Shown here one piece after another: positions 37,792 to 52,907 of a stretch of 64,000 nucleotides of DNA. The notes beneath the pieces are model-generated. The model worked only from the letters and a program-made list of their open reading frames with translations. It did not search any database and was not told the origin of the DNA. The position numbers and the translations under genes were made by a program. This DNA comes from Gammaproteobacteria bacterium (GTDB taxonomy: Bacteria > Pseudomonadota > Gammaproteobacteria > GCA-001735895). The stretch covers positions 28,363 to 92,362 of the forward strand of contig JASJCI010000007.1 in assembly GCA_030066085.1 (NCBI GenBank), read 5' to 3'. How positions within the stretch are numbered: the first letter of the stretch is position 1; every line of letters starts with the position of its first letter.

Positions 37792-38298
37792 TTGCGGCTG
37801 AACTACTTCGCCTTCGGTTCCAACCTGTCGAGCGCGCGGTTGCTGCAGCGCCTGCCGGCGGCGCGGGTACACTGTGTTGCAACCCTGGCGCAGCACCGCC
37901 TGCGCTGGCACAAGAAAGGCCGCGACCTGTCCGGCAAGTGCGCGATCGACCCCAGCGATCATCACGCGGACCGGGTTTACGGCGTGATCTACCACATGAC
38001 GCTCGACGAGCGCCACGCGCTCGACCGCATCGAGGGCCACGGCAGCGGCTACCAGCGCCGCCAGGTCGAGGTCCTGACGCTCGCCGGCGACAGCGTCGAG
38101 GCCTTCACCTATTACGCCACCGACATCGATCACGCGCGCCAACCCTACCACTGGTACAAGGAACACGTGCTGCGCGGCGCGCTCGAACACGGTTTCCCCG
38201 AGCACTACGTCGCGACGATCCGGGCAACGGTATCGATCGACGATCACGACGCGGAGCGCCACGTCAGCGAACTCTCGATTTACGGCGACGCGCGGTGA
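37792..38298 (+). CDS. gamma-glutamylcyclotransferase family protein
   Basis: YFAFGSNL, VYGVIY, LDRIEG. Confidence 0.85.
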   Translation: MRLNYFAFGSNLSSARLLQRLPAARVHCVATLAQHRLRWHKKGRDLSGKCAIDPSDHHADRVYGVIYHMTLDERHALDRIEGHGSGYQRRQVEVLTLAGDSVEAFTYYATDIDHARQPYHWYKEHVLRGALEHGFPEHYVATIRATVSIDDHDAERHVSELSIYGDAR

Positions 38299-39011
38299 AG
38301 CAAATCCTCGTGCTCGAACATATGCCGAGCCAGAACCCGGGCATCTTCCGCGAGCTGGCGGCGGCACGCGGGGTGGCTTTCACCGAGGTCGACCTGCACG
38401 CGGGAGAAACATCGCCGGACCCCGCCGGTTTCGACGGCCTGTGGGTCATGGGCGGCTCGATGAACGTCTGGGACGAGGCCGAGTATCCGTGGCTGCGGGC
38501 GGAAAAAGAGTTGATTCGCGAGGCCGTGGTCGAACGCGGCCTGCCGTTTTTCGGCATCTGCCTCGGCCACCAGCTGCTGGCCGATGCGCTGGGCGGGGCG
38601 GTGCGAGCGACGGAGGATTTCGAAATCGGCGTGCACGACGTCACCCCGACCGCGGCAGGAGTGGAGCACGCGCTGCTGGCCCGGCTGCCCCGCCCGACCC
38701 GCTGGGTCAACGTGCACCGCGCCGAGGTTTCGCGCGCACCGGCCGAGGCGACGATACTCGCGCAATCCGAGCTCTGCGCCAACCACGCCATGCAGGTCGG
38801 CGACGCGGCTTACTCGGTACAGTTTCACCCCGAAGTCTGCGAACATACCGTTGCCGCCTGGCTGCAAATCCCCGGCATACCCGAGGCGCTGGTCTCGCTG
38901 CTCGGCCCCGGCGGGGTCGAGGACTTCAGCCGCGAGGTAGAAGCGCAGCGCATGCAACACAACCGGGCAGCCGCGCGGCTGTTCGACAACTGGCTCGACC
39001 TGGTCTACTGA
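38295..39011 (+). CDS. class I glutamine amidotransferase / gamma-glutamyl hydrolase family (copy 1)
   Basis: MGGSMN, GICLGHQ, QFHPE; GTG start overlaps the upstream TGA. Confidence 0.85.
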   Translation: MKQILVLEHMPSQNPGIFRELAAARGVAFTEVDLHAGETSPDPAGFDGLWVMGGSMNVWDEAEYPWLRAEKELIREAVVERGLPFFGICLGHQLLADALGGAVRATEDFEIGVHDVTPTAAGVEHALLARLPRPTRWVNVHRAEVSRAPAEATILAQSELCANHAMQVGDAAYSVQFHPEVCEHTVAAWLQIPGIPEALVSLLGPGGVEDFSREVEAQRMQHNRAAARLFDNWLDLVY

Positions 39012-39027
39012 AAGGGAGCATCACGAC

Positions 39028-39747
39028 ATGAACATACTGGTACTGCAACACATCGCGATCGAGGATCCCGGCTACATCAAGGACCTCATGGATGCCGACG
39101 GCTGCCGCCTGACGCAGATCGAGCTCGACGAGGGCGAGCCCATCCCCGAGGACCTGTCCGGTTTCGACGCGATGCTGTGCATGGGCGGCCCGATGGACAC
39201 CTGGATGGAGGACGATTACCCGTGGCTGGTCGAGGAAAAGCGCCGTATCCGCGACTGGGTAGTGCACGAGGAAAAGCCGTTTCTCGGTTTTTGCCTCGGC
39301 TGCCAGCTGCTCGGCGAGGTGGTTGGTGGCCAGGTCGTGCGCTCGGAGCCGTCCGAGATCGGCGTGCTCGACATCCAGATGGCGGCCGCGGCCAGGCAGG
39401 ATCCGCTGTTTGCCGACTACCCGGACAGCCTCAAGGCCGTGCAGTGGCATTCCTACGAGGTAGACGGGCTCGACCTGAACACCGACGTCACGCTGCTGGC
39501 CTCGTCACCGGCCACGCGCTACCAGATTTTCCGCTACCGGCAAAACGCCTGGGGTGTGCAATTCCACGTCGAGGTACGCGAGGATACGGTCAGGCTGTGG
39601 GGCGAGGTGCCGGAGTACAGGTCCGCACTGGAAGCGAGCCTCGGCGGCGACGCGCTCGAGTCTTTCGACCAGCAAGCACGCCGGCACATGACGGACATGA
39701 ATGCCCTGTCGCGCCAGCTCTACGAGAACTTCAGGAAAATATTATAA
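39028..39747 (+). CDS. class I glutamine amidotransferase / gamma-glutamyl hydrolase family (copy 2)
   Basis: MGGPMD, GFCLGCQ, QFHVE. Confidence 0.85.
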   Translation: MNILVLQHIAIEDPGYIKDLMDADGCRLTQIELDEGEPIPEDLSGFDAMLCMGGPMDTWMEDDYPWLVEEKRRIRDWVVHEEKPFLGFCLGCQLLGEVVGGQVVRSEPSEIGVLDIQMAAAARQDPLFADYPDSLKAVQWHSYEVDGLDLNTDVTLLASSPATRYQIFRYRQNAWGVQFHVEVREDTVRLWGEVPEYRSALEASLGGDALESFDQQARRHMTDMNALSRQLYENFRKIL

Positions 39748-40269
39748 GCGCGGCGTAAACGCGAGTACGCGTACCTGGCCCGGCAGCGTCGGGTTGAACA
39801 GGTGGTTGTGCCAGTAGGTCGCTGCGAACAGCGGATCGTCCCGGTCGAGCGACTCGACGTCGAAGTCGAACGCGTGGCCGATGCTCTTTTCGCTGAACTT
39901 GAGATGGCAGGCGCCGGCCTTGAGCAGCGCGTAGGCCACCGAGGAATCGAGGCTGAACAACGCGGTCAGGCGCCGATCGAAGGGCTCGGCATCCTGGTAG
40001 TGACGTTCGGCGAGAATACGTAACCCGTTCTTGATCCACTGCGTCGGATCCTGGGTCTTGCGCACGATGTGGCTGAACTCCGCGGTACGCTCGGCCGGGT
40101 CGCGGTGCAGGATCAGGAAACTGAGCCGGGCCTGCTCGTCGCCGCCGTTGACCGAGTGGATACCCGCGCTCATGCCGGTTGTCGGGCGCCCGCCGAGTTC
40201 GCGCATGCTGTGCTTGCGCAGGCGACACTGCCAGGCGATGAAATCATCGTAGTCTTGTGTGCTAGTCAT
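39742..40269 (-). CDS. hypothetical protein
   Basis: 175-aa ORF with globular-protein composition, downstream of fhs on the same strand. Confidence 0.7.
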   Translation of the reverse strand: MTSTQDYDDFIAWQCRLRKHSMRELGGRPTTGMSAGIHSVNGGDEQARLSFLILHRDPAERTAEFSHIVRKTQDPTQWIKNGLRILAERHYQDAEPFDRRLTALFSLDSSVAYALLKAGACHLKFSEKSIGHAFDFDVESLDRDDPLFAATYWHNHLFNPTLPGQVRVLAFTPRL

Positions 40270-40317
40270 GAGATTGATTACGCAACGAGGCCAGCATTAG
40301 TTTAACTTTAAAAACAC

Positions 40318-40400
40318 CGTCATCCCGCATCGGCGGACCGCCGCGTTCGCGGGGACCTCCCGAGAATCCGCACAAGATCCCCGCTTGCGCGGGGATGACG
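40318..40400. repeat. REP-like palindromic element
   Basis: CGTCATCCC...GGGATGACG ends with internal GATCCCCGCTTGCGCGGGGATGAC; a second REP-type end CTCGCAATGAC at about 40455-40465. Confidence 0.6.
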
Positions 40401-40474
40401 ATCAGGCCTGGCTCGGGAATTGCCACGTGAACCCTGCCCCGGCACATGCCGGTGCTCGCAATGACGGGCAGGCG

Positions 40475-42148
40475 TCAGAACAGTCCCTCGACCTGGCCCT
40501 GTTCGTTGAGGCGGATATTGTCGGCCGAAGGCACCCGCGGCAGGCCCGGCATGGTCATGATATCGCCGCAGACCGCGACGATGAACTCGGCGCCGGCCGA
40601 AAGGCGTACCTCGCGGATCGGCACCTCGTGACCCGACGGTGCACCGATCAACGCGGGATCGGTCGAGAAACTGTACTGGGTCTTGGCCATGCATACCGGG
40701 AAGTGCCCGTAGCCGTCCGCCTCGAACCTGGCGAACTGGTCACGCACCTTCTTGTCGGCAATGATGTCGTCGGCACCGTACAGCGAGCGCGCGATGTGGC
40801 GCGCCTTGTTCCACAGCGGCATGTCGTCGTCGTACAGCGTGTGGAACTGCGCCTGCCCGGAATCGGCCACCGCGGCAACGTGCTCGGCGAGCTCGGCGGT
40901 GCCGGCGCTGCCGTCGGCCCAGTGGGTGGCATCGAACGCCTTGACGCCGAATTCGGCGCAAAACTCGCGAATCGCGGCGAGCTCGCCATCGGTATCGGCC
41001 GAAAAACGGTTGATCGCGACCGTGATCGGCACGCCGAACTGCTTGAGGTTGCGGATGTGACGACCGAGGTTTTCGCAACCCTTGCGGATCGCGTCGATAT
41101 CCTCGCTGCCCAGCTGGTCCTTGGCCACGCCGCCGTGCATCTTCAGCGCGCGCGCGGTTGCCACCAGTACCACCGCGTCGGGGCTTAAGCCCGCCTTGCG
41201 GCACTTGATATCGAAGAACTTCTCCGCGCCGAGATCGGCGCCGAAGCCGGCCTCGGTAACGACATAGTCCGCCAGTTTGAGCGCGGTCCTGGTTGCAATC
41301 ACCGAGTTACAGCCGTGCGCGATGTTGGCGAACGGACCGCCGTGGATGAAGGCGGGATTGTTTTCCAGCGTTTGCACCAGGTTCGGCATGAACGCGTCCT
41401 TGAGCAGCACGGTCATCGCGCCCGGTGCGTGCACGTCGCGCGCGTGAACCGGTTTGAGGTCGCGGGTGTAACCGACCACGATGTTGCCGATGCGACGCTC
41501 GAGATCCTCGAGATCGGTCGCAAGGCAGAAGATCGCCATGATTTCGGAAGCGACGGTGATGTCGAAGCCGCTTTGCCGCGGCGTACCGTTACCCGGACCA
41601 CCGAGACCGATGGTGATGTCGCGCAGCATGCGATCGTTCATGTCCATGACGCGCTTCCAGGTTACGCGACGCGGATCGAGGCCAGCCTGGTTTTCCCACT
41701 GGATATGGTTGTCGACCAGCGCCGACAGCAGGTTATGCGCGGTACCGATCGCGTGAAAGTCGCCGGTGAAGTGCAGGTTGATATCTTCCATCGGCACCAC
41801 CTGGGCGTAGCCGCCGCCAGCGGCACCACCCTTCATGCCGAAACAGGGACCGAGACTGGGTTCGCGCAGGCACATGACCGCCTTCTTGCCGATGCGATTG
41901 AGGCCATCGCCCAGGCCCACGGTCGTGGTGGTCTTGCCCTCGCCCGCCGGCGTCGGTGAAATCGCGGTAACCAGGATCAGCTTGCCGTCGGGACGGTCCT
42001 GGATCGAATCGATGAATTCCTGGGTCAGTTTGCCCTTGTCGTGACCGAAGGGCTTGAGACCGTCGGCCGGTATTTCGAGTTTCTGCGCGATGTCGCCGAT
42101 CGGCTTCAGGGTCGCTTCACGCGCAATTTCGATATCGCTTTTCGCCAT
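40475..42148 (-). CDS. fhs: formate--tetrahydrofolate ligase
   Basis: [37 protein letters not shown]. Confidence 0.95.
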
Positions 42149-42500
42149 TTTCAACTCCACATGATTGGATTCGGGCGCGTCACGGCGTTGGCGCGCGCCT
42201 CGTATTATGACTGCCGCTTCCCGTGACTCGGCAAACCTTGGAACGGCGTATCATATGGGCTGATACCCCCATAAAGTATCGCGAAAGCGACACTTAATGT
42301 AATGCAACGCTGACTGCGCCGGAAGCGCGGCACTGCGGGCCGGCTGCGAGGGGACGTTAGCGCGTCATCGCGAGCGCCCGCATGGCCCGCGGCATTCCTC
42401 GGCAAACCACGCGACATCGATCGGCTTGCCGAATCGCAGGAATTACGGCCCAGGGTAGCTGGCGGCACTTCGGGCCGCGCAATGACTGGCCCGGCAGGCT

Positions 42501-43817
42501 TCAGCAGTCGAGCGTGTTCTGGCGTTCCCAGCTGGACAGGTGCGTGGTGTAGCTGTCCCAGGCCTGCATCTTGAGCTTGACGTAGGCATCGACCAGCTCG
42601 TCGCCGAAGCCTTCGCGGATCACCTTGTTCTTGTCGAACTGGCGGATCGCATCGAGCAGGTACAGCGGCAGCTTGCGCGCGCTCTTGGCGCGGTGACCTT
42701 CTTCGTACATGTTCAGGTGCGTCGGTTCGCCCGGATCGCGCTTGTTGGTGATACCGTCGAGCATCGCCATCAGTACGCCCGCCTGCAGCAGGTAGGGATT
42801 GGCGGCGCCGTCCATCAGGCGCAGCTCGAAACGGCCGTCTTCCGGTACGCGGATCATGTGCGTGCGGTTGTTGCCGGCATAGGTCACCGCGTTCGGCGAC
42901 CAGGTTGCGCCCGACATGGTGCGCGGCGCGTTGATACGCTTGTAGCTGTTGACGGTCGGGTTGAAGATCGCCGCGAGGTCACTGGCGGTATGCATGATGC
43001 CGCCCAGCGCCTGGTAGGCCAGTGGCGACAGGCCAAGACCACGCGGATCCTTCTTCGCGGTCGCGAACAGGTTTTTCTTGCCGGCGCGATCCCACAGCGA
43101 AACGTGCGCGTGACAGCCGTTGCCGGTCAGGTGGGTAAACGGCTTGGGCATGAAGGTCGCGCGCAGGCCGTGGTTCTCGGCGATCGACTTGACCATGAAC
43201 TTGAAGAACACGTGCTTGTCGGCGGTGCGCAGCGCGTCGTCGTAATCCCAGTTCATTTCGAACTGGCCGTTGGCGTCCTCGTGATCGTTCTGGTACGGAT
43301 TCCAGCCGAGCTTGATCATCACGTCGCAAATTTCGCTGACCACCGGGTACTGACGCATCAGCGCCTGCTGGTCGTAACAGGGCTTGGCCTGGGTATCGTG
43401 CGTATCAGCGATCGCGGTACCGTCTTGATTGGTCAGGAAATACTCGCATTCGACACCGGTCTTCATGCGGTAGCCCTTCTTCTGTGCCTTGGCCAGCTGA
43501 CGCTTCAATGCGACCCGCGGCGAAGCCTCGACTTCCTTGCCGTCCATCCACAGGTCACCGGCAACCCAGCCGATCTCCGGGTTCCACGGCAGCTGGATCA
43601 GGCTGTCGGGATCGGGAATCGCAAACATATCGGGATGTGCCGGCGTCATGTCGAGCCAGGCGGCGAAGCCGGCGAAACCCGCGCCGTCTTTCTGCATGCC
43701 CTTGATCGCGCGCGTCGGCACCAGCTTGGCGCGCAGCACGCCGAACAGGTCGACCCAGCTGACGAGGAAATACTTGATCTTCTTGGTCTTGGCGATCGCT
43801 TCGAGATCTTTAGCCAC
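42501..43817 (-). CDS. gmaS: gamma-glutamylmethylamide synthetase-like (GlnT-type GS)
   Basis: DLFGVLRAKLVP, GAGFAGFAAWLDMTPAHPD resemble alphaproteobacterial GmaS; GGGAGG RBS before GTG 43817. Confidence 0.8.
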   Translation of the reverse strand: MAKDLEAIAKTKKIKYFLVSWVDLFGVLRAKLVPTRAIKGMQKDGAGFAGFAAWLDMTPAHPDMFAIPDPDSLIQLPWNPEIGWVAGDLWMDGKEVEASPRVALKRQLAKAQKKGYRMKTGVECEYFLTNQDGTAIADTHDTQAKPCYDQQALMRQYPVVSEICDVMIKLGWNPYQNDHEDANGQFEMNWDYDDALRTADKHVFFKFMVKSIAENHGLRATFMPKPFTHLTGNGCHAHVSLWDRAGKKNLFATAKKDPRGLGLSPLAYQALGGIMHTASDLAAIFNPTVNSYKRINAPRTMSGATWSPNAVTYAGNNRTHMIRVPEDGRFELRLMDGAANPYLLQAGVLMAMLDGITNKRDPGEPTHLNMYEEGHRAKSARKLPLYLLDAIRQFDKNKVIREGFGDELVDAYVKLKMQAWDSYTTHLSSWERQNTLDC

Positions 43818-43874
43818 GTGATACCCTCCCAAAGGTTGTTATGGTTGTGCCGCAGGCGGCCATTCTAAGCCAGT

Positions 43875-46394
43875 TCAGTGGCGATTCAAACTGCCCGACA
43901 TCGGCACGCCCGCCGCCTTCGATACCGCGAGCGTAATCGCGCGCAGGTCTTCCGGTTCGAGGTTGTGCACGTTGGTCTTGCCGGTGCAGCGCGCCATCAT
44001 CGCGGCTTCCGCGTTGAAGGCCTGCAGCAGGTTGAAACAGCGCTCCTCGCGTTCGGCCTGGTCGAGGTCGGCATGATATTCGGGGGTACCGCTGGAGACG
44101 TCCGCGCCGAGCGCCAATGCCGCCGCGGCACCGATGACGACCGCGTTGGCGCCGAGCGCGAGCATCTTGGCGCTGTCGGTGCCGGTGCGCAGGCCGCCGA
44201 AGTAAACCAGGTCGATGTCTTCCTCGCGGTTGAGCGCGCGCAGCTGACCGACCGCGTGATTCAGGATCGACAGGTCCGGCGCACCGCCGAGTTCCGCACC
44301 GATTTCAGGCAGGCCGTCGCCGGCATCGAGCACGAGGAAGTCGAGTTCCTGCTCGAGCGCAAACGGGATCGCCTGCGCCAGGTTGCGGTGATTGACGACC
44401 AGGCCAACGGGTTGATCTTCACGCGCGCGCGTCACCTTGCCGGCGAGCATCGCCACGCTGGCGCCGAATGCGACCGCGTCGGCCGCGGCATCCGCCGCAT
44501 CGTCGGCCAGCTGGATCCAGCGCGCGCCGTCACCTGGCGCTCGGCGGCCGAAACAGGCGGCGCCATGGTCGCCAATTGCCTTCGCGTAGGCCGCGCGAAT
44601 CTCGGCGGGCGCATCGTCGAGCCCGGTCACCAGGAACGGGATATCGAGCTTGAGGCTCTCGATCGCGCCGAGATCGGTGCGCGTGACGCAGTCCTCGCGG
44701 TAGGGGTCGATGACCAGCCGCGACAGGTTGGCGGGCAGGAACACGAGGTCGTCGAGCGTGGCCTCGTGATCCTCGCCGAACGGATTGTCTCGGTTGTTCA
44801 ACCGCTCCTGCAGGATACTGGCCTCGATCTCGACCTGGTTGGGCGTGATGCGCGACATCGCGAAAATCGACTCGCGGCTGCCGACCGTGTAGTCGGCCGA
44901 ACCGGTTTCGGCATCGCAGCGGAAACAGCGCGCGGCCTCGAACTTCGCCTCGGCTTCGGTATACGTGGATTCGATCTCGGGGAACTCGACCGGTACCTCG
45001 CCGAGCCCGTGAAACGGCTGTTCCACGCGCGGGTTCAGTTCCCAGGCCGGATCATTGCAGATGGCGACGCGCCGCGTGCGGTAAGGTGTACGGTAGGACA
45101 GCGGGGTTTCGTTGCCTTCGAGGAAGGCTTTCATGTAGTAAGCCGCGCGGTGGCCCTGGTACATCGCCTCGACTATGGTCGAACCGCCGAAGGCGCCGTC
45201 GCCGGCGGCGAACACCCGCGGATCATCGGTGCGCATACCCTCGAGACGGGTGCGTACCCGGTCCCAGTCCATCAGGCCGAGTTCATCGAGTTCGCCGCAT
45301 TCGGCCTTCTGCCCGACCGCGGCGATCACCAGCCCGCATTCGATATCGTGCTCCGAACCCTCGACGTTAATCGGCCGACGGCGGCCGTCTTCGTCGGGCT
45401 CGCCGAGCTCGGTGCGCACGCAGCGCAGCGCGCCGTCGACCACGGCCACCGGCTGCGTGTTGTAAACGATCTCGATGCCCTCCTCGATTGCACCGTGCAG
45501 TTCCTCGCGACGTGCCGGCATGGCTTCGTAGTCACGGCGGTAAACCACCTTGACGTTTTTTACGCCCGGCAGGCGTTTGGCCACGCGACAGGCGTCCATC
45601 GCGACGTCGCCGCCGCCGATGACGAGCACGGTTTCGGGCAGCGTCGGCCGCGCGCCGGCATTGACCTCGTAGAGAAAGCCAACACCGTCGCGCACGAAGG
45701 GTTCGGACTCGTCGGGCACGCCCATGGGTTTACCGACGAAGGCACCGATCGACAGCAGCACCGCGGCGTGTCGCTGTTTCAGTTCATCGAGCGACACGTC
45801 ACGGCCGAGCGCACTGTTCAAATGCACCTTGATCCCGGGGCAGTGCGCCATCATGCGATCGATGTCCTGCTGCACCGCGGATTCCGGCAGGCGGAAGCGC
45901 GGGATACCCCAGTACATCATGCCGCCGAGCTTGTCGGTCGCTTCGTGCAGGTGGACCTCGTAGCCGGCTTCGGCCAGGTCGTGCGCGGCGGTCATTCCCG
46001 CGGGACCTGCACCCACGATAGCAACGGTTTTTTGCTGGCTGACTTCGACTGGCGGCAGCGCGTAACCCGGTCCCAGCGCCTCCAGCACGTAACGCTTCAG
46101 GTTACGAATTGCAATCGCGCCGTCGCTGTCGGCGCGGCGGCAGGCGGGTTCGCAGGGCGCGTCGCAGACGCGACCGCAGATCGCGCTGAACGGGTTGGTC
46201 GCGGTGATCGCTTCGAGCGCTTCCTCGTTCTTGCCTTCCCAGATGTAGGCGATGTAGGACGGCGCATCGGTACCGATCGGACAAGCCACCTGGCACGGCG
46301 CCGGCACGTAATGAATGTCGGCGGTATCGTCCTCGAGGTCCGGCGTGGCCGTGATCGAGAACTGGTAATCGGCGTCGGAAATCTTCATCGTCAA
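43875..46394 (-). CDS. fusion of a GltD-like Fe-S/FAD/NAD(P)H module and a degenerate glutamate-synthase FMN-barrel domain
   Basis: CQVACP..CGRVCDAPCEPAC, GAGPAG, GGGDVAMD, EAARCFRC; C-terminal LDDLVFLPANLSRL...GKTNVHNLEPEDL. Confidence 0.85.
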   Translation of the reverse strand: MTMKISDADYQFSITATPDLEDDTADIHYVPAPCQVACPIGTDAPSYIAYIWEGKNEEALEAITATNPFSAICGRVCDAPCEPACRRADSDGAIAIRNLKRYVLEALGPGYALPPVEVSQQKTVAIVGAGPAGMTAAHDLAEAGYEVHLHEATDKLGGMMYWGIPRFRLPESAVQQDIDRMMAHCPGIKVHLNSALGRDVSLDELKQRHAAVLLSIGAFVGKPMGVPDESEPFVRDGVGFLYEVNAGARPTLPETVLVIGGGDVAMDACRVAKRLPGVKNVKVVYRRDYEAMPARREELHGAIEEGIEIVYNTQPVAVVDGALRCVRTELGEPDEDGRRRPINVEGSEHDIECGLVIAAVGQKAECGELDELGLMDWDRVRTRLEGMRTDDPRVFAAGDGAFGGSTIVEAMYQGHRAAYYMKAFLEGNETPLSYRTPYRTRRVAICNDPAWELNPRVEQPFHGLGEVPVEFPEIESTYTEAEAKFEAARCFRCDAETGSADYTVGSRESIFAMSRITPNQVEIEASILQERLNNRDNPFGEDHEATLDDLVFLPANLSRLVIDPYREDCVTRTDLGAIESLKLDIPFLVTGLDDAPAEIRAAYAKAIGDHGAACFGRRAPGDGARWIQLADDAADAAADAVAFGASVAMLAGKVTRAREDQPVGLVVNHRNLAQAIPFALEQELDFLVLDAGDGLPEIGAELGGAPDLSILNHAVGQLRALNREEDIDLVYFGGLRTGTDSAKMLALGANAVVIGAAAALALGADVSSGTPEYHADLDQAEREERCFNLLQAFNAEAAMMARCTGKTNVHNLEPEDLRAITLAVSKAAGVPMSGSLNRH

Positions 46395-48373
46395 CCCGCC
46401 TTGCGATCGAGCAGTTCGAGACCGGTCAGCGGTCGGTGATCGGTCTTGTGTTCCGGCCGATAGGGCAGGCCGGTGATATCCGCCGCTTCCGGGGTCAGCG
46501 CCACCAGGTCGCCGCGTCCCACCTTGTGCACGTCGTCATGGCCGAGCGCCCTGGTGATCGCGGCGATCTGCCAGCGCAGCGACTCGAAGTAGCGATGCAT
46601 GTTCATCGCCTGCTTGTCGAGATCGTAGCGCGCCTCGTGTTCGGGATCCTGGGTTGCGATGCCGACCGGGCAGGTACCGACGTGGCACTGCATGCAGGCA
46701 ATACAGCCGCCGGCAATAATGGCCGCGGTACCGACCGAGGTGCAGCTGGCGCCGAGCGCAAGCATCTTGACGATATCGACACCGTCCTTGAGTCCGCCCA
46801 TCATCACCAGGTCCATGTCGTCGCCGGCGTCGATCTCGCGCAGGCCGTCGATCGCTTCCTGTACCGCCGCGAGGGTCGGGATACCGACGTTCTCGAGCAC
46901 CTCGGTGCTGGCCGCGCCGGTGGAGCCCTGCAGGCCGTCGAGCTCGACGAAGTCGAAACCGTCCTTGTAGGCGATCTTGATGTCGTCATTGACCCGGCCG
47001 GCGCCCATCTTGATGCCGATCGGCACCTTGTGGAAGGTCGCTTCACGGAATTCCTGCAGCTTGATGACGAGATCGTCCGCGCCGAGCACGTCGGGGTGAC
47101 GCGACGGCGAGCGCAGGTCGATGCCGACCGGGATACCGCGGATCGCGGCCAGTTCCGGTGTAACCTTCTTCGCCATCAGCTGCCCGCCGAGACCCGGCTT
47201 GGCGCCTTGCGAGATGTAGATCTCGATCGCGTCGGCGCGCTGCATGTCCTTGACGTTCCAGCCGAGCCGCCCCGACAGGCACTGGAAGATCAGCTGGTCG
47301 GCTTCGGCGCGCTGCTCGTCGAGCATGCCGCCCTCGCCGGTATTCTCGGAGATGCCGGACAGGCGCGACGCGCGCGCGAGCGCGATCTTGACCTTGCGCG
47401 ACAGCGCGCCGAAGCTCATCGGCGCGATCATGACCGGCATCGACAGGCTGATCGGTTTGGCGCCGAAACGCCCGCCGACCGTGGTCTTCAGGTTGATGTC
47501 CTTCAGCTCCTCGGGATCCGGCGAGATGGTCGAGATGTCCCGCGCGAAGGCAATGTCGTTCAGGTGCGGCACCGGCTTGGACGCGCCGTAGCCACGGATT
47601 CGGTAACGCCCGACTTCACCCTTGATCCAGATATCTTCCTGCACCTTCGGGTTCCAGTAGTTGGACGATTTCGACGACACGAAAAACGGCTGCGGACGAT
47701 GCCGCGGCTCGGCCTTGGCGTAACGCAGTTTTTTGCCGGCATTGACGACCTTGGTGAAGTCGCCATCGAATTTCAGTTCGAAACGGTCGAGAAATTCCCT
47801 GATCTCGTCGCGCTCCTGCGCGTCCATGTCGACGATCATGGTGTCGTTGCCGAGGCTCTCGATCTTGCCGCCGACAAAAATCTCGCCGGCGCTCATGTCC
47901 TGCCCGACCTTGGCCGCGGCGTCACCGAGGATGATGATGCGCCCGCCGTACATCATGTAGCCCGCCATGAACGCGGCATTGCCGCCGCAGCACAGCGTGC
48001 CGGCCTTCATGACCTGGCCGGCGCGGCTGCCCATATTGCCGCGCACGACGATTTCGGCGCCGCGGATGGCAACGCCCGGAATCGCGCCGGCGTTGCCGCC
48101 GACCACCACGGTACCGTTGTAGATGTTGTCTCCAACCGCCCAGCCCGCGTTGTGCTCGATTTCGAAGCGCGCGCCGTCGGACAGACCACCGCAGAAATAA
48201 CCGGCGGACCCGCGCACGCGCACGGTAACGGGGTTGTCGACGACCAGCCCGACACCGATATTGTGGCGCGCATCGGGATTGACGATTTCGATGTCCTGCC
48301 CGTCGGCGGCAAGACTGTGGATTTTTTGATTGGCCGCGGTAATCGCGACCTGGCTTAAATCGATCTGGCCCAT
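46391..48373 (-). CDS. fused GXGXG + FMN-binding glutamate-synthase domains (MgsB-MgsC-like fusion)
   Basis: N-terminal GXGXG repeats; MSFGALS, QGAKPG, C-x5-C-x4-C (CIACMQCHVGTC). Confidence 0.88.
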   Translation of the reverse strand: MGQIDLSQVAITAANQKIHSLAADGQDIEIVNPDARHNIGVGLVVDNPVTVRVRGSAGYFCGGLSDGARFEIEHNAGWAVGDNIYNGTVVVGGNAGAIPGVAIRGAEIVVRGNMGSRAGQVMKAGTLCCGGNAAFMAGYMMYGGRIIILGDAAAKVGQDMSAGEIFVGGKIESLGNDTMIVDMDAQERDEIREFLDRFELKFDGDFTKVVNAGKKLRYAKAEPRHRPQPFFVSSKSSNYWNPKVQEDIWIKGEVGRYRIRGYGASKPVPHLNDIAFARDISTISPDPEELKDINLKTTVGGRFGAKPISLSMPVMIAPMSFGALSRKVKIALARASRLSGISENTGEGGMLDEQRAEADQLIFQCLSGRLGWNVKDMQRADAIEIYISQGAKPGLGGQLMAKKVTPELAAIRGIPVGIDLRSPSRHPDVLGADDLVIKLQEFREATFHKVPIGIKMGAGRVNDDIKIAYKDGFDFVELDGLQGSTGAASTEVLENVGIPTLAAVQEAIDGLREIDAGDDMDLVMMGGLKDGVDIVKMLALGASCTSVGTAAIIAGGCIACMQCHVGTCPVGIATQDPEHEARYDLDKQAMNMHRYFESLRWQIAAITRALGHDDVHKVGRGDLVALTPEAADITGLPYRPEHKTDHRPLTGLELLDRKAG

Positions 48374-49263
48374 GTCTGGTGCGTCCCGGGCGCCGGTTCG
48401 GTGGAATTGATGGATTGCCCCGGGAACAGCCGGTTGAGGCTGACTTCCTCGGAGGCGATGGCGATCATGTCATCGGTTTCGTACAGCACCATCGGCTTGG
48501 CCGCGAGGTTGTCCTTGGCATAACCGATCTCGTCTTTGGTCGAGACCAGGAAAGAAAAGGTGCCGTCGAGATCCTCGATCGCGGTTTCGAGCACGCTGTC
48601 GAGCGTTTCGCCCTGCGACAGCTTGTCGGCGAGGTAGACCGCGACCAGTTCGCTGTCGTTATCGGTATGGAAGCTGTAGCCGCGACGTTCGAGCCGGCGG
48701 CGCATTTTCCAGTAATTGGTGATCTGGCCGTTGTGCACGATCGCGATGTCTTCGAAGCCGGTTGCCCAGAAAGGGTGCGCCGCCTCGGGCCGCACCGCGG
48801 ATTCGGTCGCGAGACGGACATGACCGATGCCGTGGGTGCCGGTGAATTCACCGACGTTGTAGAGGTCATCAAGCTCGTGCGCGGTGCCGTCGTCCTTGAT
48901 GATGTCGAGCGTATGCCCGACCGAAACCAGCTTGGCGTGCTCCTCGATGTCCTTGGTAAACTCGAGCAGGTCACCGTCGAAGCGCACCGCGATCTGGTAG
49001 GAACAACCGACGGACTGTTCGCTCTCGATAGCGGCATCGTGGCGCGCCAGCAGGCTCGCGATGTTGTCGACCGCGTCCTTGCGCGCAGCCTCGTCGGTCG
49101 GCACGATAAAACGCAGCTGCAGCAAATCCCTGGTTTCGCCGTACATCGCGAAGCCGGTGCTGTCGGGGCCGCGATGCTGGCAACCGTCGAGCATTTCGAT
49201 CAGCGTCTTGCCGATTTCATGCGCGCCCTGGGTCTTGAACAGTACGCCTGCAATTCCACACAT
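48355..49263 (-). CDS. class II glutamine amidotransferase (MgsA-like)
   Basis: N-terminal MCGI, HRGPDS, GHVRLATES, HNGQI, DSE. Confidence 0.88.
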   Translation of the reverse strand: MCGIAGVLFKTQGAHEIGKTLIEMLDGCQHRGPDSTGFAMYGETRDLLQLRFIVPTDEAARKDAVDNIASLLARHDAAIESEQSVGCSYQIAVRFDGDLLEFTKDIEEHAKLVSVGHTLDIIKDDGTAHELDDLYNVGEFTGTHGIGHVRLATESAVRPEAAHPFWATGFEDIAIVHNGQITNYWKMRRRLERRGYSFHTDNDSELVAVYLADKLSQGETLDSVLETAIEDLDGTFSFLVSTKDEIGYAKDNLAAKPMVLYETDDMIAIASEEVSLNRLFPGQSINSTEPAPGTHQTWARSI

Positions 49264-49299
49264 GGGGGGATCCTCCCGGATCGGACTGGTAAGCGCGCG

Positions 49300-49328
49300 A
49301 GCTTACTGCATGCAGGCGATAGGGTCAA
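49300..49328 (-). promoter_or_regulatory. sigma70-type promoter of the mgs-like operon
   Basis: TTGACC (49328-49323) - 17 nt - TAAGCT (49305-49300). Confidence 0.5.
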
Positions 49329-49338
49329 CTGATGTGAA

Positions 49339-49365
49339 ATTTTGTTTCCTATCAGGAAACAAAAT
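49339..49365. promoter_or_regulatory. candidate operator
   Basis: ATTTTGTTTCCT-atc-AGGAAACAAAAT perfect 12-bp inverted repeat 10 nt upstream of the -35. Confidence 0.5.
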
Positions 49366-49997
49366 CAGCTCGATGTCGCCTCCGAAACGATTATCGACAG
49401 GTAGCGACAGGGCAGTTCCTGGATCTGATCGGGCCCGTGAGAAGCCTCGGCATCGAAAAACAGGGTATCACCGGGACCCAGCGTGTAGGTTTTGTTGGCA
49501 TGCCGATAGGCAACCTGCCCCTCGAGCATGTAAATCAGCTCCATGCCGGTGTGTTGAAACACAGGAAACACCTCGGACTTGTCGGTAATCGTGATCAGGT
49601 AGGGTTCGATCGTGTAGGGTTTGCCGATCGTGTGCCCGAGCAACTGGTACTGATGGCCGGCGCCCGAGCCCCGGCGCTCGATTTGCAGACCCTCGCCAGC
49701 AGGCGTGTAGGTCACGTCGCGCTGCTCTTCGTAACCTCGAAAAAACGAGGTCACCGGGACCTGCAGCGCGGCCGCGAGCGAGGTCAGCGTAGCCAGCGAC
49801 GGCGAGGTCTGGCCGTTTTCGATCTTGGACAACATGCCGGTCGACAGGCGCGCCTGCTTGGCCAGCATCGCCACGGTAAGGTTGAGGCGCTTGCGCTGGC
49901 TGCGTACCTGCTTGCCGATCGCGACCTCCAGCGCCTTGACGCTGTGCTGTCCGGCAACGGGTTCGATACTGGCGTTGTCTGTACCGGCGTCGGCCAT
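49365..49997 (-). CDS. XRE-family HTH regulator with cupin domain
   Basis: LSTGMLSKIENGQTSPSL HTH; HTGMELIY..GDTLFFDA..H cupin; start placed at ATG 49997. Confidence 0.88.
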   Translation of the reverse strand: MADAGTDNASIEPVAGQHSVKALEVAIGKQVRSQRKRLNLTVAMLAKQARLSTGMLSKIENGQTSPSLATLTSLAAALQVPVTSFFRGYEEQRDVTYTPAGEGLQIERRGSGAGHQYQLLGHTIGKPYTIEPYLITITDKSEVFPVFQHTGMELIYMLEGQVAYRHANKTYTLGPGDTLFFDAEASHGPDQIQELPCRYLSIIVSEATSS

Positions 49998-50215
49998 GTC
50001 CAGAATAGGGTCGTCGCAAAGCTTTATCAGAACCCAGCAGGCGCGCGATTGCAAATCGCTCAGCGCCACCGGTCGACGGATCGTACCAGGACTGTACCAA
50101 TAAAACGCGGCAGCCATGTTGACCGTCGCGGAGTAATTCCCTACTCTTGACAGGCTGGATTACAACCCACGACCGATAATAAAACCCTATTAGAATCAAA
50201 TATTTGGAGGACAGC

Positions 50216-51559
50216 ATGTCAAAGCGTGTAGCAGTCATCGGGGCCGGTCCAAGCGGCCTTGCACAGTTGAGGGCGTTTCAGTCAGCGAAGGAGAAGGGCG
50301 CCGAGATTCCCGAGGTCGTCTGCTTCGAAAAGCAGGAAGACTGGGGCGGCCTGTGGCGCTACACCTGGCGCACCGGCCTCGACGAGTTCGGCGAACCGGT
50401 CCACGGCAGCATGTATCGCTACCTCTGGTCCAACGGCCCGAAAGAAGGCCTCGAATTCGCCGATTACTATTTCGAGGACCACTTCGGCAAGCCGATCGCA
50501 TCCTACCCGCCGCGCGCCGTCCTGTTCGACTACATCGAGGGCCGGGTCAAGAAAGCCGGCGTGCGCCCGTGGATCCGCTTCCGCTCACCGGTACGCCACG
50601 TCACCCACGACGACGCCAGCGGCATGTTCACCGTGACGGTGCACGACCTCGAGAAAGATCATGAGTACAGCGAGGATTTCGATCACGTGGTGGTCGCCAG
50701 CGGGCATTTCTCGACCCCGAACGTACCCCACTTCGACGGTTTCGAAAGCTTCAACGGCCGCGTGCTGCACGCGCACGATTTCCGCGACGCGATGGAGTTC
50801 AAGGACAAGGATATCCTGATCATCGGCACCTCTTACTCGGCCGAGGACATCGGCTCGCAGTGCTGGAAATACGGCTGCAAGTCGGTCACGGTATCGCACC
50901 GCACGGCACCGATGGGCTACAAGTGGCCGGACAACTGGAAAGAAGTGCCGCTGCTGCAAAAGGTCGAGAAGAACACCGCTTATTTCAAGGACGGTACCAC
51001 CGCCGAGGTCGACGCGATCATCCTCTGCACCGGCTACCTGCACCACTTCCCGTTCATGGAGGAAAGCCTGAAACTGCGTACCGCCAATCGCCTGGCCGCG
51101 GCCAACCTGTACAAGGGCGTGGTGTTCTGCGACAACCCGAAGCTGTTCTACCTCGGCATGCAGGACCAGTGGTACACCTTCAACATGTTCGATGCCCAGG
51201 CCTGGTACGTGCGCGACATCATCCTGGGCCGCATCGACATACCCGCGGACAAGGCCGCGCTGCTGGCCGACGTCAAGGCGCGCGAGGATGCCGAAGACGC
51301 GCTCGAGGACGACTACGGCTGCATCCGCTACCAGGGCGCCTACACCCAGGAGCTGATCGACGAGACCGACTACCCGAGCTTCGACATCGAGGCCGCGAAC
51401 CAGGCTTTCTTCGAGTGGAAGAAGCACAAGAAGGAAAACATAATGACCTTCCGTAACCACGGTTACACGTCGCCGATGACGGGTAACAAGGCGCCACCGC
51501 ACCACACGCCGTGGAAGGATGCGCTCGACGATTCGCTGGAGAGTTACCTGCAGACCTGA
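50216..51559 (+). CDS. tmm: bacterial flavin-containing monooxygenase, trimethylamine monooxygenase-like
   Basis: [30 protein letters not shown], FxGxxxHxHDF, GTSYSAED. Confidence 0.88.
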
Positions 51560-51648: not shown

Positions 51649-52020
51649 TTAGCGGTAAAACCGCAGCGGCGGTGCGTCCTGCCGCTCGATCAGCAACAGC
51701 GCACCCTGCACTCGTGCGCGAAACGTAAAGGCATCGTCGGGAAAACCGATCTGGCCCAGCATGTGCTCACCGTAGCGCCGCCCGACGACAGGTAGACGCA
51801 CACCCTCGGCCAGCAGTTCGCCGTCGTAGTTGCCGGGACTGTCGCTGAAGATCAGCAGGCGATGCGCCGTACCGTCGATGTCGCCGCTAAACTCACCGAC
51901 AAACGGATCGGTTTGCGCGGCTGCGCCGGTCGCGAGCAGGCCGCCGACCACGAGCAGCACGGCGGCGACCAGCCAACCCCGCTGCGTGGGAATAACGACA
52001 GCCGGCAGGTCGGCGGGCAT
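51649..52020 (-). CDS. hypothetical exported protein
   Basis: 123 aa; hydrophobic leader followed by a beta-rich domain. Confidence 0.6.
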   Translation of the reverse strand: MPADLPAVVIPTQRGWLVAAVLLVVGGLLATGAAAQTDPFVGEFSGDIDGTAHRLLIFSDSPGNYDGELLAEGVRLPVVGRRYGEHMLGQIGFPDDAFTFRARVQGALLLIERQDAPPLRFYR

Positions 52021-52028
52021 GCCGAATC

Positions 52029-52907
52029 CTATTCCGGTACCTCGACGTCGTTGATGCGGCAGGCCTGCTGCAGCGTGTTGTACAGCAGGCAGGCAATCGT
52101 CATCGGGCCGACACCGCCGGGTACCGGCGTTATCGCGCCGGCGACTGCGGCCGCGCTGTCGAATTCGACATCGCCGACCAGGCGCGTACCGCCCTCGCCG
52201 TTATCGATGCGATTGATACCGACATCGATCACGGTGGCGCCGGGCTTGACCCAGTCGCCCTTGATCATCTCCGGCCGTCCGACCGCCGCCACCAGGATAT
52301 CCGCCTCGCGGCACTCGCCCGGCAGATCCTGCGTACGCGAGTGCGCAATGGTGACCGTGCAGCTCTCCTTCAGCAGCAGGGCCGCCATCGGTTTGCCGAC
52401 GATGTTGGAGCGGCCGACGATGATCGCCTTTTTACCGGACAGGTCACCGAGATGGTCCTTGAGCATCATCAGCGAACCCAGCGGCGTGCAGGGTACGATA
52501 CCGTCCGCGCCGATCGACAGCTTGCCGACGTTGGACAGGTGGAAGCCGTCCACGTCCTTGTCGACCGAAATCGAGTTGATCACGGCCTCTTCGTCGATAT
52601 GGCCGGGCAGCGGCAGCTGCACCAGGATACCGTGCACCTCGGGATCGGCGTTGAGCCGATCGATCAGCCCCAGCAGTTCGGCCTGGCTGGTTCCCGCGTC
52701 GAGCCGGTGCTCGTAGGAGTTCATGCCCGCCTCGACGGTCTGCTTGCCCTTGCTGCGCACGTAGACCTGGCTCGCGGGATCTTCCCCGACCAGGACCACC
52801 GCAAGCCCCGGGACCAGGTCATGCTGTTGTTTCAGGATCGCTACCTTGCGCGCGATTTCGCTGCGCAGGTTGGCCGCGAAGGCCTTGCCGTCGATGATCG
52901 TCGCCAC
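52029..52907 (-). CDS. folD: methylene-THF dehydrogenase/cyclohydrolase
   Basis: [37 protein letters not shown]. Confidence 0.95.

What the first reader, a model, noticed from the sequence alone, without database searches (positions are those of the whole stretch)
42501..49263. Non-canonical mgs operon: MgsA, MgsB-C fusion, reductase subunit, GmaS
Seen: the GXGXG and FMN domains are one 660-aa chain that retains QGAKPG and a full C-x5-C-x4-C 3Fe-4S motif like GltB, with overlapping starts and stops across the genes. Established: described mgsABC clusters encode three separate subunits without a dedicated NAD(P)H module. Inference: a distinct, more GOGAT-like N-methylglutamate synthase.
Basis: partly seen in the sequence, partly recalled or inferred. 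Interest (0 to 1): 0.6.

Follow-up and report, generated by a model that had tools for sequence, protein, structure and literature searches.

The report
Reductase-coupled methylglutamate-synthase-like operon
Beside a genuine methylamine-activating enzyme gene (gmaS), this uncultured marine bacterium carries a conserved, apparently unstudied three-gene relative of glutamate synthase with its own NAD(P)H-type electron-input subunit, which probably passes methylamine nitrogen reductively onto 2-oxoglutarate.

Summary
On the minus strand lie a Cys1 amidotransferase (302 aa), a 660-aa GXGXG+FMN-barrel fusion, an 837/839-aa GltD-like reductase fused to a stripped-down second barrel, and a true GmaS (609 bits to the solved Rhodovulum GmaS). 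They are flanked by an XRE-cupin regulator, tmm, folD and FTHFS.

The fused chain keeps QGAKPG and an invariant C-x2-C-x2-C-x4-C site. Of 16 canonical MgsC sequences, 15 have lost the cysteines, and all 16 carry GDGG/GGML where this family and GltB have GEGG/GGQL.

The three-gene module is contiguous in every one of 80 fetched loci whose sequence extends far enough, and at least 529 species genomes encode a relative of the reductase. Of 50 module-bearing genomes, 41 have a GmaS orthologue (background 38/400). Only 7 have a canonical MgsC, and 48 also have ordinary GltB.

My best reading (0.5) is an NAD(P)H-driven, GOGAT-like N-methylglutamate synthase. A dedicated glutamine-dependent GOGAT remains a serious rival. 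The B-C fusion alone is not diagnostic, because one canonical-type fusion without a reductase was found.

I found no paper on this arrangement. This scan had already noted the same family on other DNA, with similar readings.

The parts
49365..50117 (-). XRE-type HTH + cupin transcriptional regulator, first gene of the minus-strand run and divergent from tmm
   Evidence: Pfam HTH_3 + Cupin_2. It is 58% identical to the XRE regulator upstream of mgsA in Thioclava. A homologue lies upstream of the module in 21 of 68 loci.
48355..49263 (-). Class-II (Ntn) amidotransferase subunit (MgsA-like), 302 aa, with catalytic Cys1 (MCGIAG)
   Evidence: Pfam GATase_6/7 and translation. It is 31% identical to canonical Thioclava MgsA. 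It keeps the HNG and R/D motifs in the alignment.
46391..48373 (-). 660-aa fusion of the GXGXG beta-helix domain (MgsB-like) and the FMN synthase barrel (MgsC/GltB-like); P0001
   Evidence: PF01493 at residues 38-170 and PF01645 at 306-612. The barrel is 41% identical to canonical MgsC and 32% to the genome's own GltB. The family forms a separate clade with SH-aLRT 100.
47192..47209 (-). QGAKPG substrate/FMN loop (residues 389-394), followed by LGGQL as in GltB
   Evidence: QGAKPG[L/F]GGQL occurs in 34/34 family members, against QGAKPGGGGML in 16/16 canonical MgsC.
46670..46705 (-). Four-cysteine Fe-S site C557-x2-C560-x2-C563-x4-C568, at the position of the GltB [3Fe-4S] motif
   Evidence: Alignment with the genome's own GltB (C-x5-C-x4-C) and with canonical MgsC, which has no Cys here. 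All four Cys are invariant in 34 sequences.
44904..46394 (-). GltD/NfnB-type NAD(P)H-FAD reductase module with the two N-terminal [4Fe-4S] cysteine motifs (residues 1-497 of P0002; likely start ATG at 46388)
   Evidence: PF14691 Fer4_20 at 32-105 and PF07992 at 123-414; NF009410 scores 401 bits. Foldseek matches NfnB 4ylf_B (TMt 0.74) and Azospirillum GltD 6s6s_E (TMt 0.71). C34, C38, C73, C77, C81 and C85 are invariant.
43878..44777 (-). Degenerate MgsC-like (beta/alpha)8 barrel fused to the reductase (residues ~540-839 of P0002)
   Evidence: It is 32% identical to MgsC-type barrels. It lacks the MSxGALS, GEGG and QGAKPG segment and the Cys site, but keeps YFGGLRTGTD. The AF2 model of the domain has pLDDT 88 and a TIM-barrel fold with Z about 20. 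It is predicted to dock on P0001.
42501..43832 (-). gamma-Glutamylmethylamide synthetase GmaS (likely start GTG ~43817, 438 aa)
   Evidence: TIGR03105 scores 651 bits against a cut-off of 470. It scores 609 bits (E 4e-182) against the PDB 7CQL Rhodovulum GmaS and is 60.5% identical to Thioclava GmaS.
40475..42160 (-). Formate-tetrahydrofolate ligase (FTHFS), downstream on the same strand
   Evidence: PF01268 scores 886 bits and NF010030 scores 911 bits. A homologue lies downstream of gmaS in 8 related loci.
50204..51559 (+). Trimethylamine monooxygenase Tmm, divergent from the regulator
   Evidence: NF058570 scores 826 bits against a cut-off of 675.
52029..52907 (-). FolD (methylene-THF dehydrogenase/cyclohydrolase)
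   Evidence: PF02882 + PF00763.

Best explanation
The three tightly coupled genes encode one enzyme complex that is the counterpart, in this lineage, of N-methylglutamate synthase, but wired like NADPH-glutamate synthase.

Proposed mechanism, all inferred:
1. GmaS ligates methylamine to glutamate, giving gamma-glutamylmethylamide (GMA).
2. The Cys1 amidotransferase subunit hydrolyses GMA.
3. The released methylamine is channelled to the FMN barrel of the 660-aa subunit, where it adds to 2-oxoglutarate.
4. The N-methyl-imine is reduced by FMNH2.
5. FMN is re-reduced by NAD(P)H through FAD and two [4Fe-4S] clusters of the GltD-like module, and then through the four-Cys cluster of the barrel.

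The net reaction would be GMA + 2-oxoglutarate + NAD(P)H -> glutamate + N-methylglutamate. With an N-methylglutamate dehydrogenase, methylamine nitrogen would end in glutamate without passing through free ammonia, while the methyl group enters the THF pool (FolD and FTHFS are adjacent).

The degenerate second barrel on the reductase chain would dock on the catalytic face of the active barrel. It would play the structural and tunnel-lining role that the truncated central barrel plays in GltB.

What is shown: domain content, motifs, conservation, genomic association and the predicted docking. What is inferred: substrates, product, direction and cofactor occupancy.
For: 1. Genomic slot. The order regulator - amidotransferase - GXGXG/FMN - (reductase) - gmaS mirrors the canonical Thioclava and Methylobacterium order XRE - mgsA - mgsB - mgsC - gmaS. 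The regulator (58% identity) and GmaS (60.5%) are orthologous, while the Mgs-like parts are only 31-41% identical.

2. GmaS is genuine: 609 bits to PDB 7CQL, and TIGR03105 above its cut-off.

3. The module is invariably contiguous in the 80 loci wherever sequence allows. GmaS lies directly downstream in 28 of 68 loci, and Amt, the regulator and FTHFS recur nearby.

4. Co-occurrence. Of 50 module-bearing genomes, 41 have a GmaS of at least 57% identity, against 38 of 400 sampled Pseudomonadota. Only 7 of the 50 also have a canonical MgsC. At least 7 genomes, three of them single-contig, have GmaS plus the module as their only Mgs-like system. In several genomes the module lies beside mgdA-like soxBDA genes and gmaS.

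5. The module is not the housekeeping GOGAT: 48 of 50 module-bearing genomes, and this genome, also have a full GltB.

6. Electron wiring. The four Cys at the GltB cluster site are invariant. The GltD cysteine motifs and the FAD/NAD(P)H folds are invariant. Canonical MgsC, which needs no external electrons, has lost the Cys site in 15 of 16 sequences.

7. The genes are translationally coupled.

8. Docking of the pseudo-barrel on the 660-aa chain was predicted with score 0.81, best of 3 controls 0.00. That mark was reached by 58 of 80 solved complexes and 2 of 110 mismatched pairs. These counts hold only roughly, because my own alignments were used. The runs agree in at least 88% of contacts and the partner's pLDDT is at least 88. 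The interface uses the invariant LVFLPANLSRLVIDPYR segment and covers the QGAKPG loop.
Against: - No biochemical or genetic data exist for any member, as far as my searches reached.
- The synthase site looks like GltB (GEGG, GGQL) and lacks the substitutions shared by all 16 canonical MgsC (GDGG, GGML). It may therefore add ammonia and not methylamine.
- Seven of 50 genomes (for example Aestuariivirga) carry both a canonical gmaS-linked mgsABC and this module elsewhere, which argues against simple redundancy.
- GmaS is not adjacent to the module in more than half of the loci.
- This genome has only one heterotetrameric soxBDAG-type candidate for N-methylglutamate dehydrogenase, and it is unlinked.
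- About 35 of 50 module-bearing genomes also carry a second Mgs-like cluster, as this window does at 58338-63041. That cluster could be the real N-methylglutamate synthase.
- The docking prediction may partly echo the intrachain central/FMN-barrel packing of solved GltB structures.
Confidence: 0.5

Rival explanations
1. The module is a true glutamate synthase: glutamine or ammonia plus 2-oxoglutarate plus NAD(P)H gives glutamate. It is assembled from split parts and placed under methylamine control to capture methylamine-derived nitrogen. It could act after ammonia release by another enzyme. It could also act after a hypothetical oxidative demethylation of GMA to glutamine.
For: GEGG, QGAKPG-x-GGQL and the cysteine cluster are as in GltB, and the canonical MgsC signatures are absent. 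A complete GltD module is present. All functional parts of GOGAT are present, with the pseudo-barrel standing in for the central domain (PMC8097209 describes the GltB central domain as a truncated barrel that lines the tunnel). The module coexists with a canonical mgsABC in 7 of 50 genomes.
Against: 48 of 50 carriers already have GltB. The module's strongest partner is GmaS, not a glutamine synthetase. It occupies the mgsABC slot behind the orthologous regulator. Its barrel groups with the Mgs-like clades and not with GltB. In genomes with GmaS and no other Mgs-like genes, GMA would otherwise have no known consumer. No GMA-to-glutamine demethylase is known.
Confidence: 0.27
2. The module works on another gamma-glutamyl-alkylamide or another amine (ethylamine, dimethylamine or a polyamine-derived amide), and its link to GmaS is only loose.
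For: GmaS is not adjacent in more than half of the loci. In Aestuariivirgaceae the module is followed by RidA and a DAO-type oxidase. A few carriers have only 40-47%-identity GS-like proteins.
Against: Where a GS-like gene is adjacent, it is the GmaS orthologue at 64-93% identity. The neighbours tmm, folD, FTHFS and Amt-type channels all point to methylated amines.
Confidence: 0.13
3. The complex runs oxidatively. It would be an N-methylglutamate or glutamate dehydrogenase that passes electrons from FMN through the Fe-S chain to NAD(P)+.
For: The electron chain is in principle reversible, and GltD-type modules work in both directions in Nfn and DPD (PMC8097209).
Against: An intact Cys1 amidotransferase subunit is conserved and translationally coupled. 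It has no role in such a reaction. Oxidation on the glutamyl side would only regenerate methylamine.
Confidence: 0.05

Closest known systems
N-methylglutamate synthase MgsABC (= GlxBCD; EC 2.1.1.21) with GmaS, as in Methyloversatilis, Methylobacterium, Methylocella, Ruegeria and Thioclava
   Same: It has the same three catalytic modules: a Ntn amidotransferase, a GXGXG beta-helix and an FMN barrel with QGAKPG. It sits in the same operon slot, behind an orthologous XRE-cupin regulator and next to an orthologous gmaS. Its barrel falls inside the Mgs-like supergroup.
   Different: The B and C modules are fused. Identity to canonical parts is only 31-41%, and the family is a separate deep clade. 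It keeps a four-Cys Fe-S site, and GEGG/GGQL in place of GDGG/GGML. It is always joined by a GltD-type reductase fused to a degenerate barrel. Canonical MgsABC has none of these features.
Bacterial NADPH-glutamate synthase GltB/GltD (EC 1.4.1.13; Azospirillum brasilense, PDB 6S6S)
   Same: It has a Cys1 glutaminase, an FMN synthase barrel with the same loop motifs, cysteines at the [3Fe-4S] position, a beta-helix domain, and a GltD-type subunit with two [4Fe-4S] motifs, FAD and NAD(P)H folds. A truncated extra barrel is packed on the synthase barrel (PMC8097209).
   Different: The parts are split over three genes in a different order: A | beta-helix+barrel | GltD+pseudo-barrel. There is no PF04898 central domain. 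The extra barrel is a recent MgsC-like duplicate carried on the reductase chain. The cluster site has four Cys and not three. The barrel is only 32% identical to GltB. The module is linked to GmaS and to methylated-amine genes.
Dihydropyrimidine dehydrogenase (DPD) and NfnB/StnC-type proteins
   Same: DPD has a GltD-like N-terminal module followed by an FMN-type TIM barrel in one chain. These were the top whole-chain Foldseek matches.
   Different: The DPD barrel is a catalytic DHODH-type barrel followed by two further [4Fe-4S] sites. Here the barrel is an MgsC-type paralogue stripped of its substrate loops.
Second GS-like + MgsABC-like cluster of this same window (58338-63041)
   Same: It has the same module set. 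Its MgsC2 also keeps four Cys at the cluster site. It co-occurs with the module in about 35 of 50 genomes.
   Different: Its B and C modules are split, and it has no reductase gene. Its GS-like ligase is divergent and is not GmaS. Its barrel is closer to canonical MgsC (52% identity) than the fused barrel is.

Membership tests
Canonical N-methylglutamate synthase MgsABC | Three modules are present: a class-II amidotransferase with Cys1, a GXGXG domain and an FMN Glu_synthase barrel | tested here: met
   Pfam hits and the MCG start. The B and C modules are on one chain.
Canonical N-methylglutamate synthase MgsABC | Operon link with gmaS and the XRE-cupin regulator | tested here: met
   The layout matches Thioclava and Methylobacterium. 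The regulator is 58% and GmaS 60.5% identical. GmaS is adjacent in 28/68 loci.
Canonical N-methylglutamate synthase MgsABC | Orthology of the FMN barrel with the canonical MgsC clade (members 74-87% identical to Thioclava MgsC; signature GDGG and QGAKPGGGGML) | tested here: not met
   Identity is 41%. The family is a separate clade (100) from the canonical clade (99) in a quick ML tree. It has GEGG/GGQL where 16/16 canonical sequences have GDGG/GGML.
Canonical N-methylglutamate synthase MgsABC | Redox-neutral flavoenzyme: no Fe-S site and no pyridine-nucleotide subunit | tested here: not met
   Four invariant Cys occupy the GltB cluster position, and a GltD-type gene is always adjacent. Of 16 canonical MgsC, 15 lack the Cys site.
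Canonical N-methylglutamate synthase MgsABC | Forms N-methylglutamate from methylamine or GMA | not testable with these tools
   This needs an enzyme assay or genetics.
NADPH-glutamate synthase GltB/GltD | Synthase barrel with the QGAKPG/GGQL loop and Cys ligands at the [3Fe-4S] position | tested here: met
   Alignment with the genome's own GltB. The family has one additional Cys. The cluster type itself was not determined.
NADPH-glutamate synthase GltB/GltD | GltD-type subunit with two [4Fe-4S] Cys motifs, FAD and NAD(P)H Rossmann folds | tested here: met
   Fer4_20 + Pyr_redox_2 and TIGR01318 at 256 bits, below that family's cut-off. Foldseek matches 6s6s_E with TMt 0.71. The Cys are invariant.
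NADPH-glutamate synthase GltB/GltD | Single ~1500-aa alpha chain ordered amidotransferase - central domain (PF04898) - FMN - GXGXG | tested here: not met
   The parts are split over three genes with a different order, and there is no PF04898 hit. The genome has a separate true GltB.
NADPH-glutamate synthase GltB/GltD | Uses L-glutamine as amide donor and makes two glutamates | not testable with these tools
   This needs an assay. It remains the main rival reading.
gamma-Glutamylmethylamide synthetase GmaS (type III GS, TIGR03105) | Scores above the family cut-off and is closely similar to a solved, characterised GmaS | tested here: met
   651 bits against a cut-off of 470. 609 bits and E 4e-182 against 7CQL.

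The most novel reading that the evidence does not exclude
GmaS plus this module form a 'methylamine GS-GOGAT cycle'. In it, an NAD(P)H-driven, Fe-S-wired N-methylglutamate synthase transfers methylamine nitrogen from GMA onto 2-oxoglutarate without releasing ammonia. This would be the main or only N-methylglutamate synthase of hundreds of uncultured marine and freshwater Gamma- and Alphaproteobacteria that lack canonical MgsABC. The pseudo-barrel on the reductase chain would be an independent re-invention of the GltB central domain.
Probability: 0.42. Interest if true: 0.75.

Novelty: new variant of a known kind. Interest (0 to 1): 0.6.

Why it matters
Methylated amines are a significant nitrogen and energy source in the sea and are precursors of climate-active aerosols. 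Gene surveys of their turnover count tmm, tdm, gmaS and canonical mgs/mgd genes.

If this module is the N-methylglutamate synthase of the many uncultured Gamma- and Alphaproteobacteria that have gmaS but no canonical mgsABC, current marker sets miss a step. The stoichiometry of methylamine nitrogen assimilation would also differ in these organisms, being NAD(P)H- and 2-oxoglutarate-dependent with no free ammonia.

For enzymology, the family is a natural intermediate between glutamate synthase and the Fe-S-free N-methylglutamate synthase. It shows which features were lost in canonical MgsC: the cluster, E to D in GEGG, and Q to M in GGQL. It also offers a small, split system in which to study amidotransferase-synthase coupling and the role of a truncated second barrel.

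Tried and rejected
- I first suspected that the 839-aa protein was a fused dimethylamine monooxygenase component. I rejected this because purified Dmm has subunits of 42, 36 and 24 kDa and dmmABC are unrelated small genes (PMC5520151).
- The plasmid collection (tblastn) held only split GXGXG + FMN genes, at most 38.6% identical among the 40 records listed and under 60% in all 325. No member of the fused family was found there.
- Promoter and terminator scans over 40000-50400 gave no more sites than shuffled sequence and nothing informative inside the operon.
- The surroundings of the genome's only true soxBDAG cluster (C52) gave no hint whether it is sarcosine oxidase or N-methylglutamate dehydrogenase.
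- Fold searches with the pseudo-barrel alone returned generic FMN-type TIM barrels: type-2 IPP isomerase, flavocytochrome b2 and IMPDH at Z 18-21, and GltB at Z 18 aligned mostly to its FMN domain. There was no specific match to the GltB central domain.
- The careful ML tree did not finish in the time allowed, so the quick IQ-TREE result is quoted. No archaeal GltB sequences could be added.
- Literature searches for the arrangement, and for GltS active-site residue numbers, found nothing. I therefore describe motifs and not numbered GltS residues.
I could not test whether the four invariant Cys of the reductase chain (C490, C493, C569, C803) cluster in space.

Full report
WHAT IS THERE

The minus strand between 50117 and 40475 carries six genes in a row:
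- an XRE-HTH/cupin regulator (49365-50117);
- a 302-aa class-II amidotransferase that starts MCGIAG (48355-49263);
- a 660-aa protein, P0001, with a GXGXG domain (residues 38-170) and a Glu_synthase FMN barrel (306-612, E 8e-92) (46391-48373);
- an 839-aa protein, P0002 (43875-46394);
- a type-III glutamine-synthetase-like ligase (42501-43832);
- formate-THF ligase (40475-42160).

Tmm lies divergently at 50204-51559 (NF058570, 826 bits). FolD is at 52029-52907.

The first two junctions are translationally coupled. The amidotransferase and fusion genes overlap by 19 nt. The fusion's TGA is followed 2 nt later by an ATG, which gives the 837-aa length seen in homologues. gmaS follows after about 57 nt, with a GGGAGG site before a GTG.

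The ligase is a genuine GmaS. It scores 651 bits on TIGR03105 and 609 bits (E 4e-182) against the solved Rhodovulum GmaS, PDB 7CQL.

P0001 contains ISQGAKPGLGGQL and GGCIACMQCHVGTCP. I aligned it with the genome's own GltB and with canonical MgsC from Methylobacterium sp. DM1 and Thioclava. Those two were fetched as annotated mgsA-mgsB-mgsC-glnT clusters. In the alignment the cysteines fall exactly at the GltB [3Fe-4S] motif.
- GltB has C-x5-C-x4-C.
- P0001 has C-x2-C-x2-C-x4-C, and all four Cys are invariant in 34 family members.
- Canonical MgsC has no cysteines there. Of 16 canonical-clade sequences, 15 have 0-1 Cys in this segment, and one early-branching member keeps four.
- All 16 canonical MgsC read GDGG and QGAKPGGGGML. 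All 34 fused-family sequences read GEGG and QGAKPG[L/F]GGQL, as GltB does.

The family keeps several GltB-like features that the canonical N-methylglutamate synthase barrel has lost.

THE 'REDUCTASE SUBUNIT' IS ITSELF A FUSION

Residues 32-497 of P0002 are a GltD/NfnB-type module (Fer4_20 + Pyr_redox_2; NF009410, 401 bits). The cysteine motifs are invariant, namely C34, C38, C73, C77, C81 and C85. The whole-chain AF2 model (pLDDT 78.5) matches NfnB, StnC, DPD and Azospirillum GltD.

Residues ~540-839 are a paralogue of MgsC-type barrels, 32% identical.
- It has lost the MSxGALS, GEGG and QGAKPG segment (a deletion of about 55 residues) and the Cys site.
- It keeps YFGGLRTGTD, and also an invariant N-terminal strand LVFLPANLSRLVIDPYR-x2-C.
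- Folded alone, it is a confident compact (beta/alpha)8 barrel (pLDDT 88, pTM 0.89). It resembles small FMN-dependent barrels (Z about 20) and GltB (Z 18).
- With three of the usual FMN and substrate motifs gone, catalysis is unlikely. Whether it still binds FMN is open.

A complex prediction of P0001 with this domain passed the tool's mark.
- Score 0.81, best of 3 controls 0.00.
- That mark was reached by 58 of 80 solved complexes and 2 of 110 mismatched pairs. The counts hold only roughly, because my own alignments were used.
- The runs agree in at least 88% of contacts, and the partner's pLDDT is at least 88.
- The interface uses the invariant strand and the GGLRTG loop of the pseudo-barrel. 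On P0001 it uses residues 387-395 (the QGAKPG loop), 456-509 and 626-640.

In GltB, a truncated central barrel, possibly a duplicate of the FMN barrel, lines the ammonia tunnel together with the synthase barrel (PMC8097209). The pseudo-barrel is a plausible independent analogue of it. The prediction may partly echo that solved intrachain packing, so it supports docking but does not show it.

HOW WIDESPREAD AND HOW CONSTANT

Full-length (~835-850 aa) P0002 homologues are abundant in metagenomes. They are annotated only as 'FAD-dependent oxidoreductase' or 'glutamate synthase beta subunit-like'.

The carriers are mostly uncultured:
- marine Gammaproteobacteria, including the Olavius algarvensis Gamma3 symbiont;
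- Aestuariivirga, including the cultured A. litoralis KCTC 52945;
- Thalassospiraceae, Rhodospirillales and Burkholderiales;
- some Planctomycetota, Latescibacterota, Gemmatimonadaceae and Acidimicrobiia.

In the 80 loci fetched, amidotransferase - fusion - reductase are always contiguous and co-oriented wherever sequence allows. GmaS lies directly downstream in 28 of 68 loci. The regulator is upstream in 21, Amt-type channels are present in 13, and FTHFS in 8. None of 325 plasmid hits is a member of the family.

WHAT IT IS RELATED TO

The barrel of P0001 is 41% identical to canonical MgsC, 39% to the barrel of the window's second cluster (MgsC2) and 32% to GltB. MgsC2 is 52% identical to canonical MgsC.

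In a quick ML tree the fused family is one clade (SH-aLRT 100) on a long stem, and canonical MgsC is another (99). Together with the MgsC2 type, both group (96) apart from GltB and two other paralogues of this genome. The family is thus a deep sister lineage inside the Mgs-like group that retained ancestral GOGAT features. It is not a close relative of bacterial GltB.

The B-C fusion is not unique to the family. A 1.5-Mb genome (G421, locus L107) has mgd - gmaS - mgsA - mgsBC - amt, in which a canonical-type barrel (77% identical to Thioclava MgsC) is fused in frame to MgsB, with no reductase.

FUNCTIONAL CONTEXT

The regulator and GmaS are orthologous to those that flank canonical mgsABC in Thioclava (58% and 60.5% identity). 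The enzyme parts between them are only 31-41% identical. This looks like a displacement within the same operon slot.

Among 50 module-bearing genomes:
- 41 have a GmaS of at least 57% identity, and 5 more have a 43-47% GS-like protein. In a sample of 400 high-quality Pseudomonadota, 38 had a GmaS of at least 59% identity.
- None of the 49 GmaS-like-positive sampled genomes had the module. They had split mgsB/mgsC beside gmaS.
- Only 7 also have a canonical MgsC, always next to their gmaS. About 35 also have an MgsC2-type gene.
- At least 7 with a GmaS orthologue have the module as their only Mgs-like system. Three of these are single-contig genomes.
- 48 have a normal GltB (PF04898), as this genome does.
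- 49 have SoxB/MgdA-like genes, in several cases next to the module and gmaS.

This genome has one unlinked soxBDAG set (53% identical to Thioclava MgdA), and its context is uninformative.

MECHANISM AND RIVALS

The retained cluster site plus an obligatory GltD module imply that FMN on the 660-aa chain exchanges electrons with NAD(P)H, as in GOGAT. Canonical N-methylglutamate synthase is redox-neutral.

Together with the GmaS link, the most economical reading is GMA + 2-oxoglutarate + NAD(P)H -> glutamate + N-methylglutamate. With GmaS this would be a GS-GOGAT-like cycle for methylamine nitrogen. I give this a confidence of 0.5.

The main rival (0.27) is a genuine glutamine/ammonia-type glutamate synthase dedicated to methylamine-derived nitrogen. 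Three things favour it: the GltB-like GEGG/GGQL motifs, coexistence with a canonical mgsABC in some genomes, and the possibility that the second cluster is the real N-methylglutamate synthase. Three things argue against it: near-universal coexistence with GltB, the pairing with GmaS, and genomes in which GMA would otherwise have no consumer.

Other amine substrates (0.13) and an oxidative direction (0.05) are less likely. No sequence-based test available here can decide substrate or product.

NOVELTY

I found no paper that describes the arrangement. The model-organism literature describes only split mgsABC/glxBCD (PMC3160333, PMC5520151, PMC13390433).

This scan has met the same family several times on other DNA, with convergent readings. 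Those are unchecked AI notes, and my tests were made independently. I class the finding as a new variant of a known kind: an uncharacterised, widespread, reductase-coupled member of the glutamate-synthase / N-methylglutamate-synthase superfamily.

Noticed in passing
L107 (G421:C1:1088000-1103000), 7538-9556: A 1.5-Mb, low-GC (43%) genome has mgdA/C - gmaS-like - mgsA - an in-frame canonical-type MgsB-MgsC fusion (77% identical to Thioclava MgsC, no Cys cluster, no reductase). It is followed by an Amt channel 74% identical to the window's second Amt (55965-57437).
   Followed up: partly
window 58338-59675 (MgsC2) and L113-L116, L119: The FMN barrels of the second, split cluster type keep four cysteines (C-x~20-C-x2-C-x4-C) at the Fe-S position, although that cluster has no reductase gene. 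Four of the six also read QGCKVG where the others have QGAKPG.
   Followed up: partly
L121 (G238:C1:2906804-2908290): One early-branching member of the canonical MgsC clade (GDGG, GGML) still has the four-Cys site. It may mark the point at which the cluster was lost.
   Followed up: no
window 43875-46394, residues C490, C493, C569, C803 of P0002: Four further invariant cysteines flank and sit in the pseudo-barrel: CFRC in the linker, DPYRE-x-C and MARCTG. The last two positions are also Cys in canonical MgsC and MgsC2, but not in the fused barrel. This could be an extra metal or cluster site.
   Followed up: no
context of P0106 (Aestuariivirgaceae chromosome OZ244154; locus L042): In this genome the module is followed by a RidA-family imine deaminase and a 415-aa DAO-type oxidase. 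It is preceded by soxB/D/A-like genes and a GlxA/DJ-1-type regulator, and gmaS lies about 7.5 kb downstream behind an Amt and the XRE-cupin regulator.
   Followed up: partly
several G-handle genomes (e.g. G031:C48:15458-16615, G019:C107:27841-29013): A SoxB/MgdA-like class only 40-45% identical to Thioclava MgdA recurs within a few kb of the module or of gmaS. It is probably the beta/gamma-proteobacterial type of N-methylglutamate dehydrogenase subunit.
   Followed up: no
window 37713-39747 (+): Two adjacent class-I glutamine-amidotransferase-like genes (38441-39011 region and 39028-39747) lie just beyond FTHFS on the opposite strand. Their role is unknown.
   Followed up: no
window 51862-52716 (+) versus 52029-52907 (-): The long plus-strand ORF here is a shadow of FolD on the minus strand (Pfam hits only on the minus frame). 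Shadow ORFs of this GC-rich DNA give misleadingly conserved tblastn hits.
   Followed up: yes
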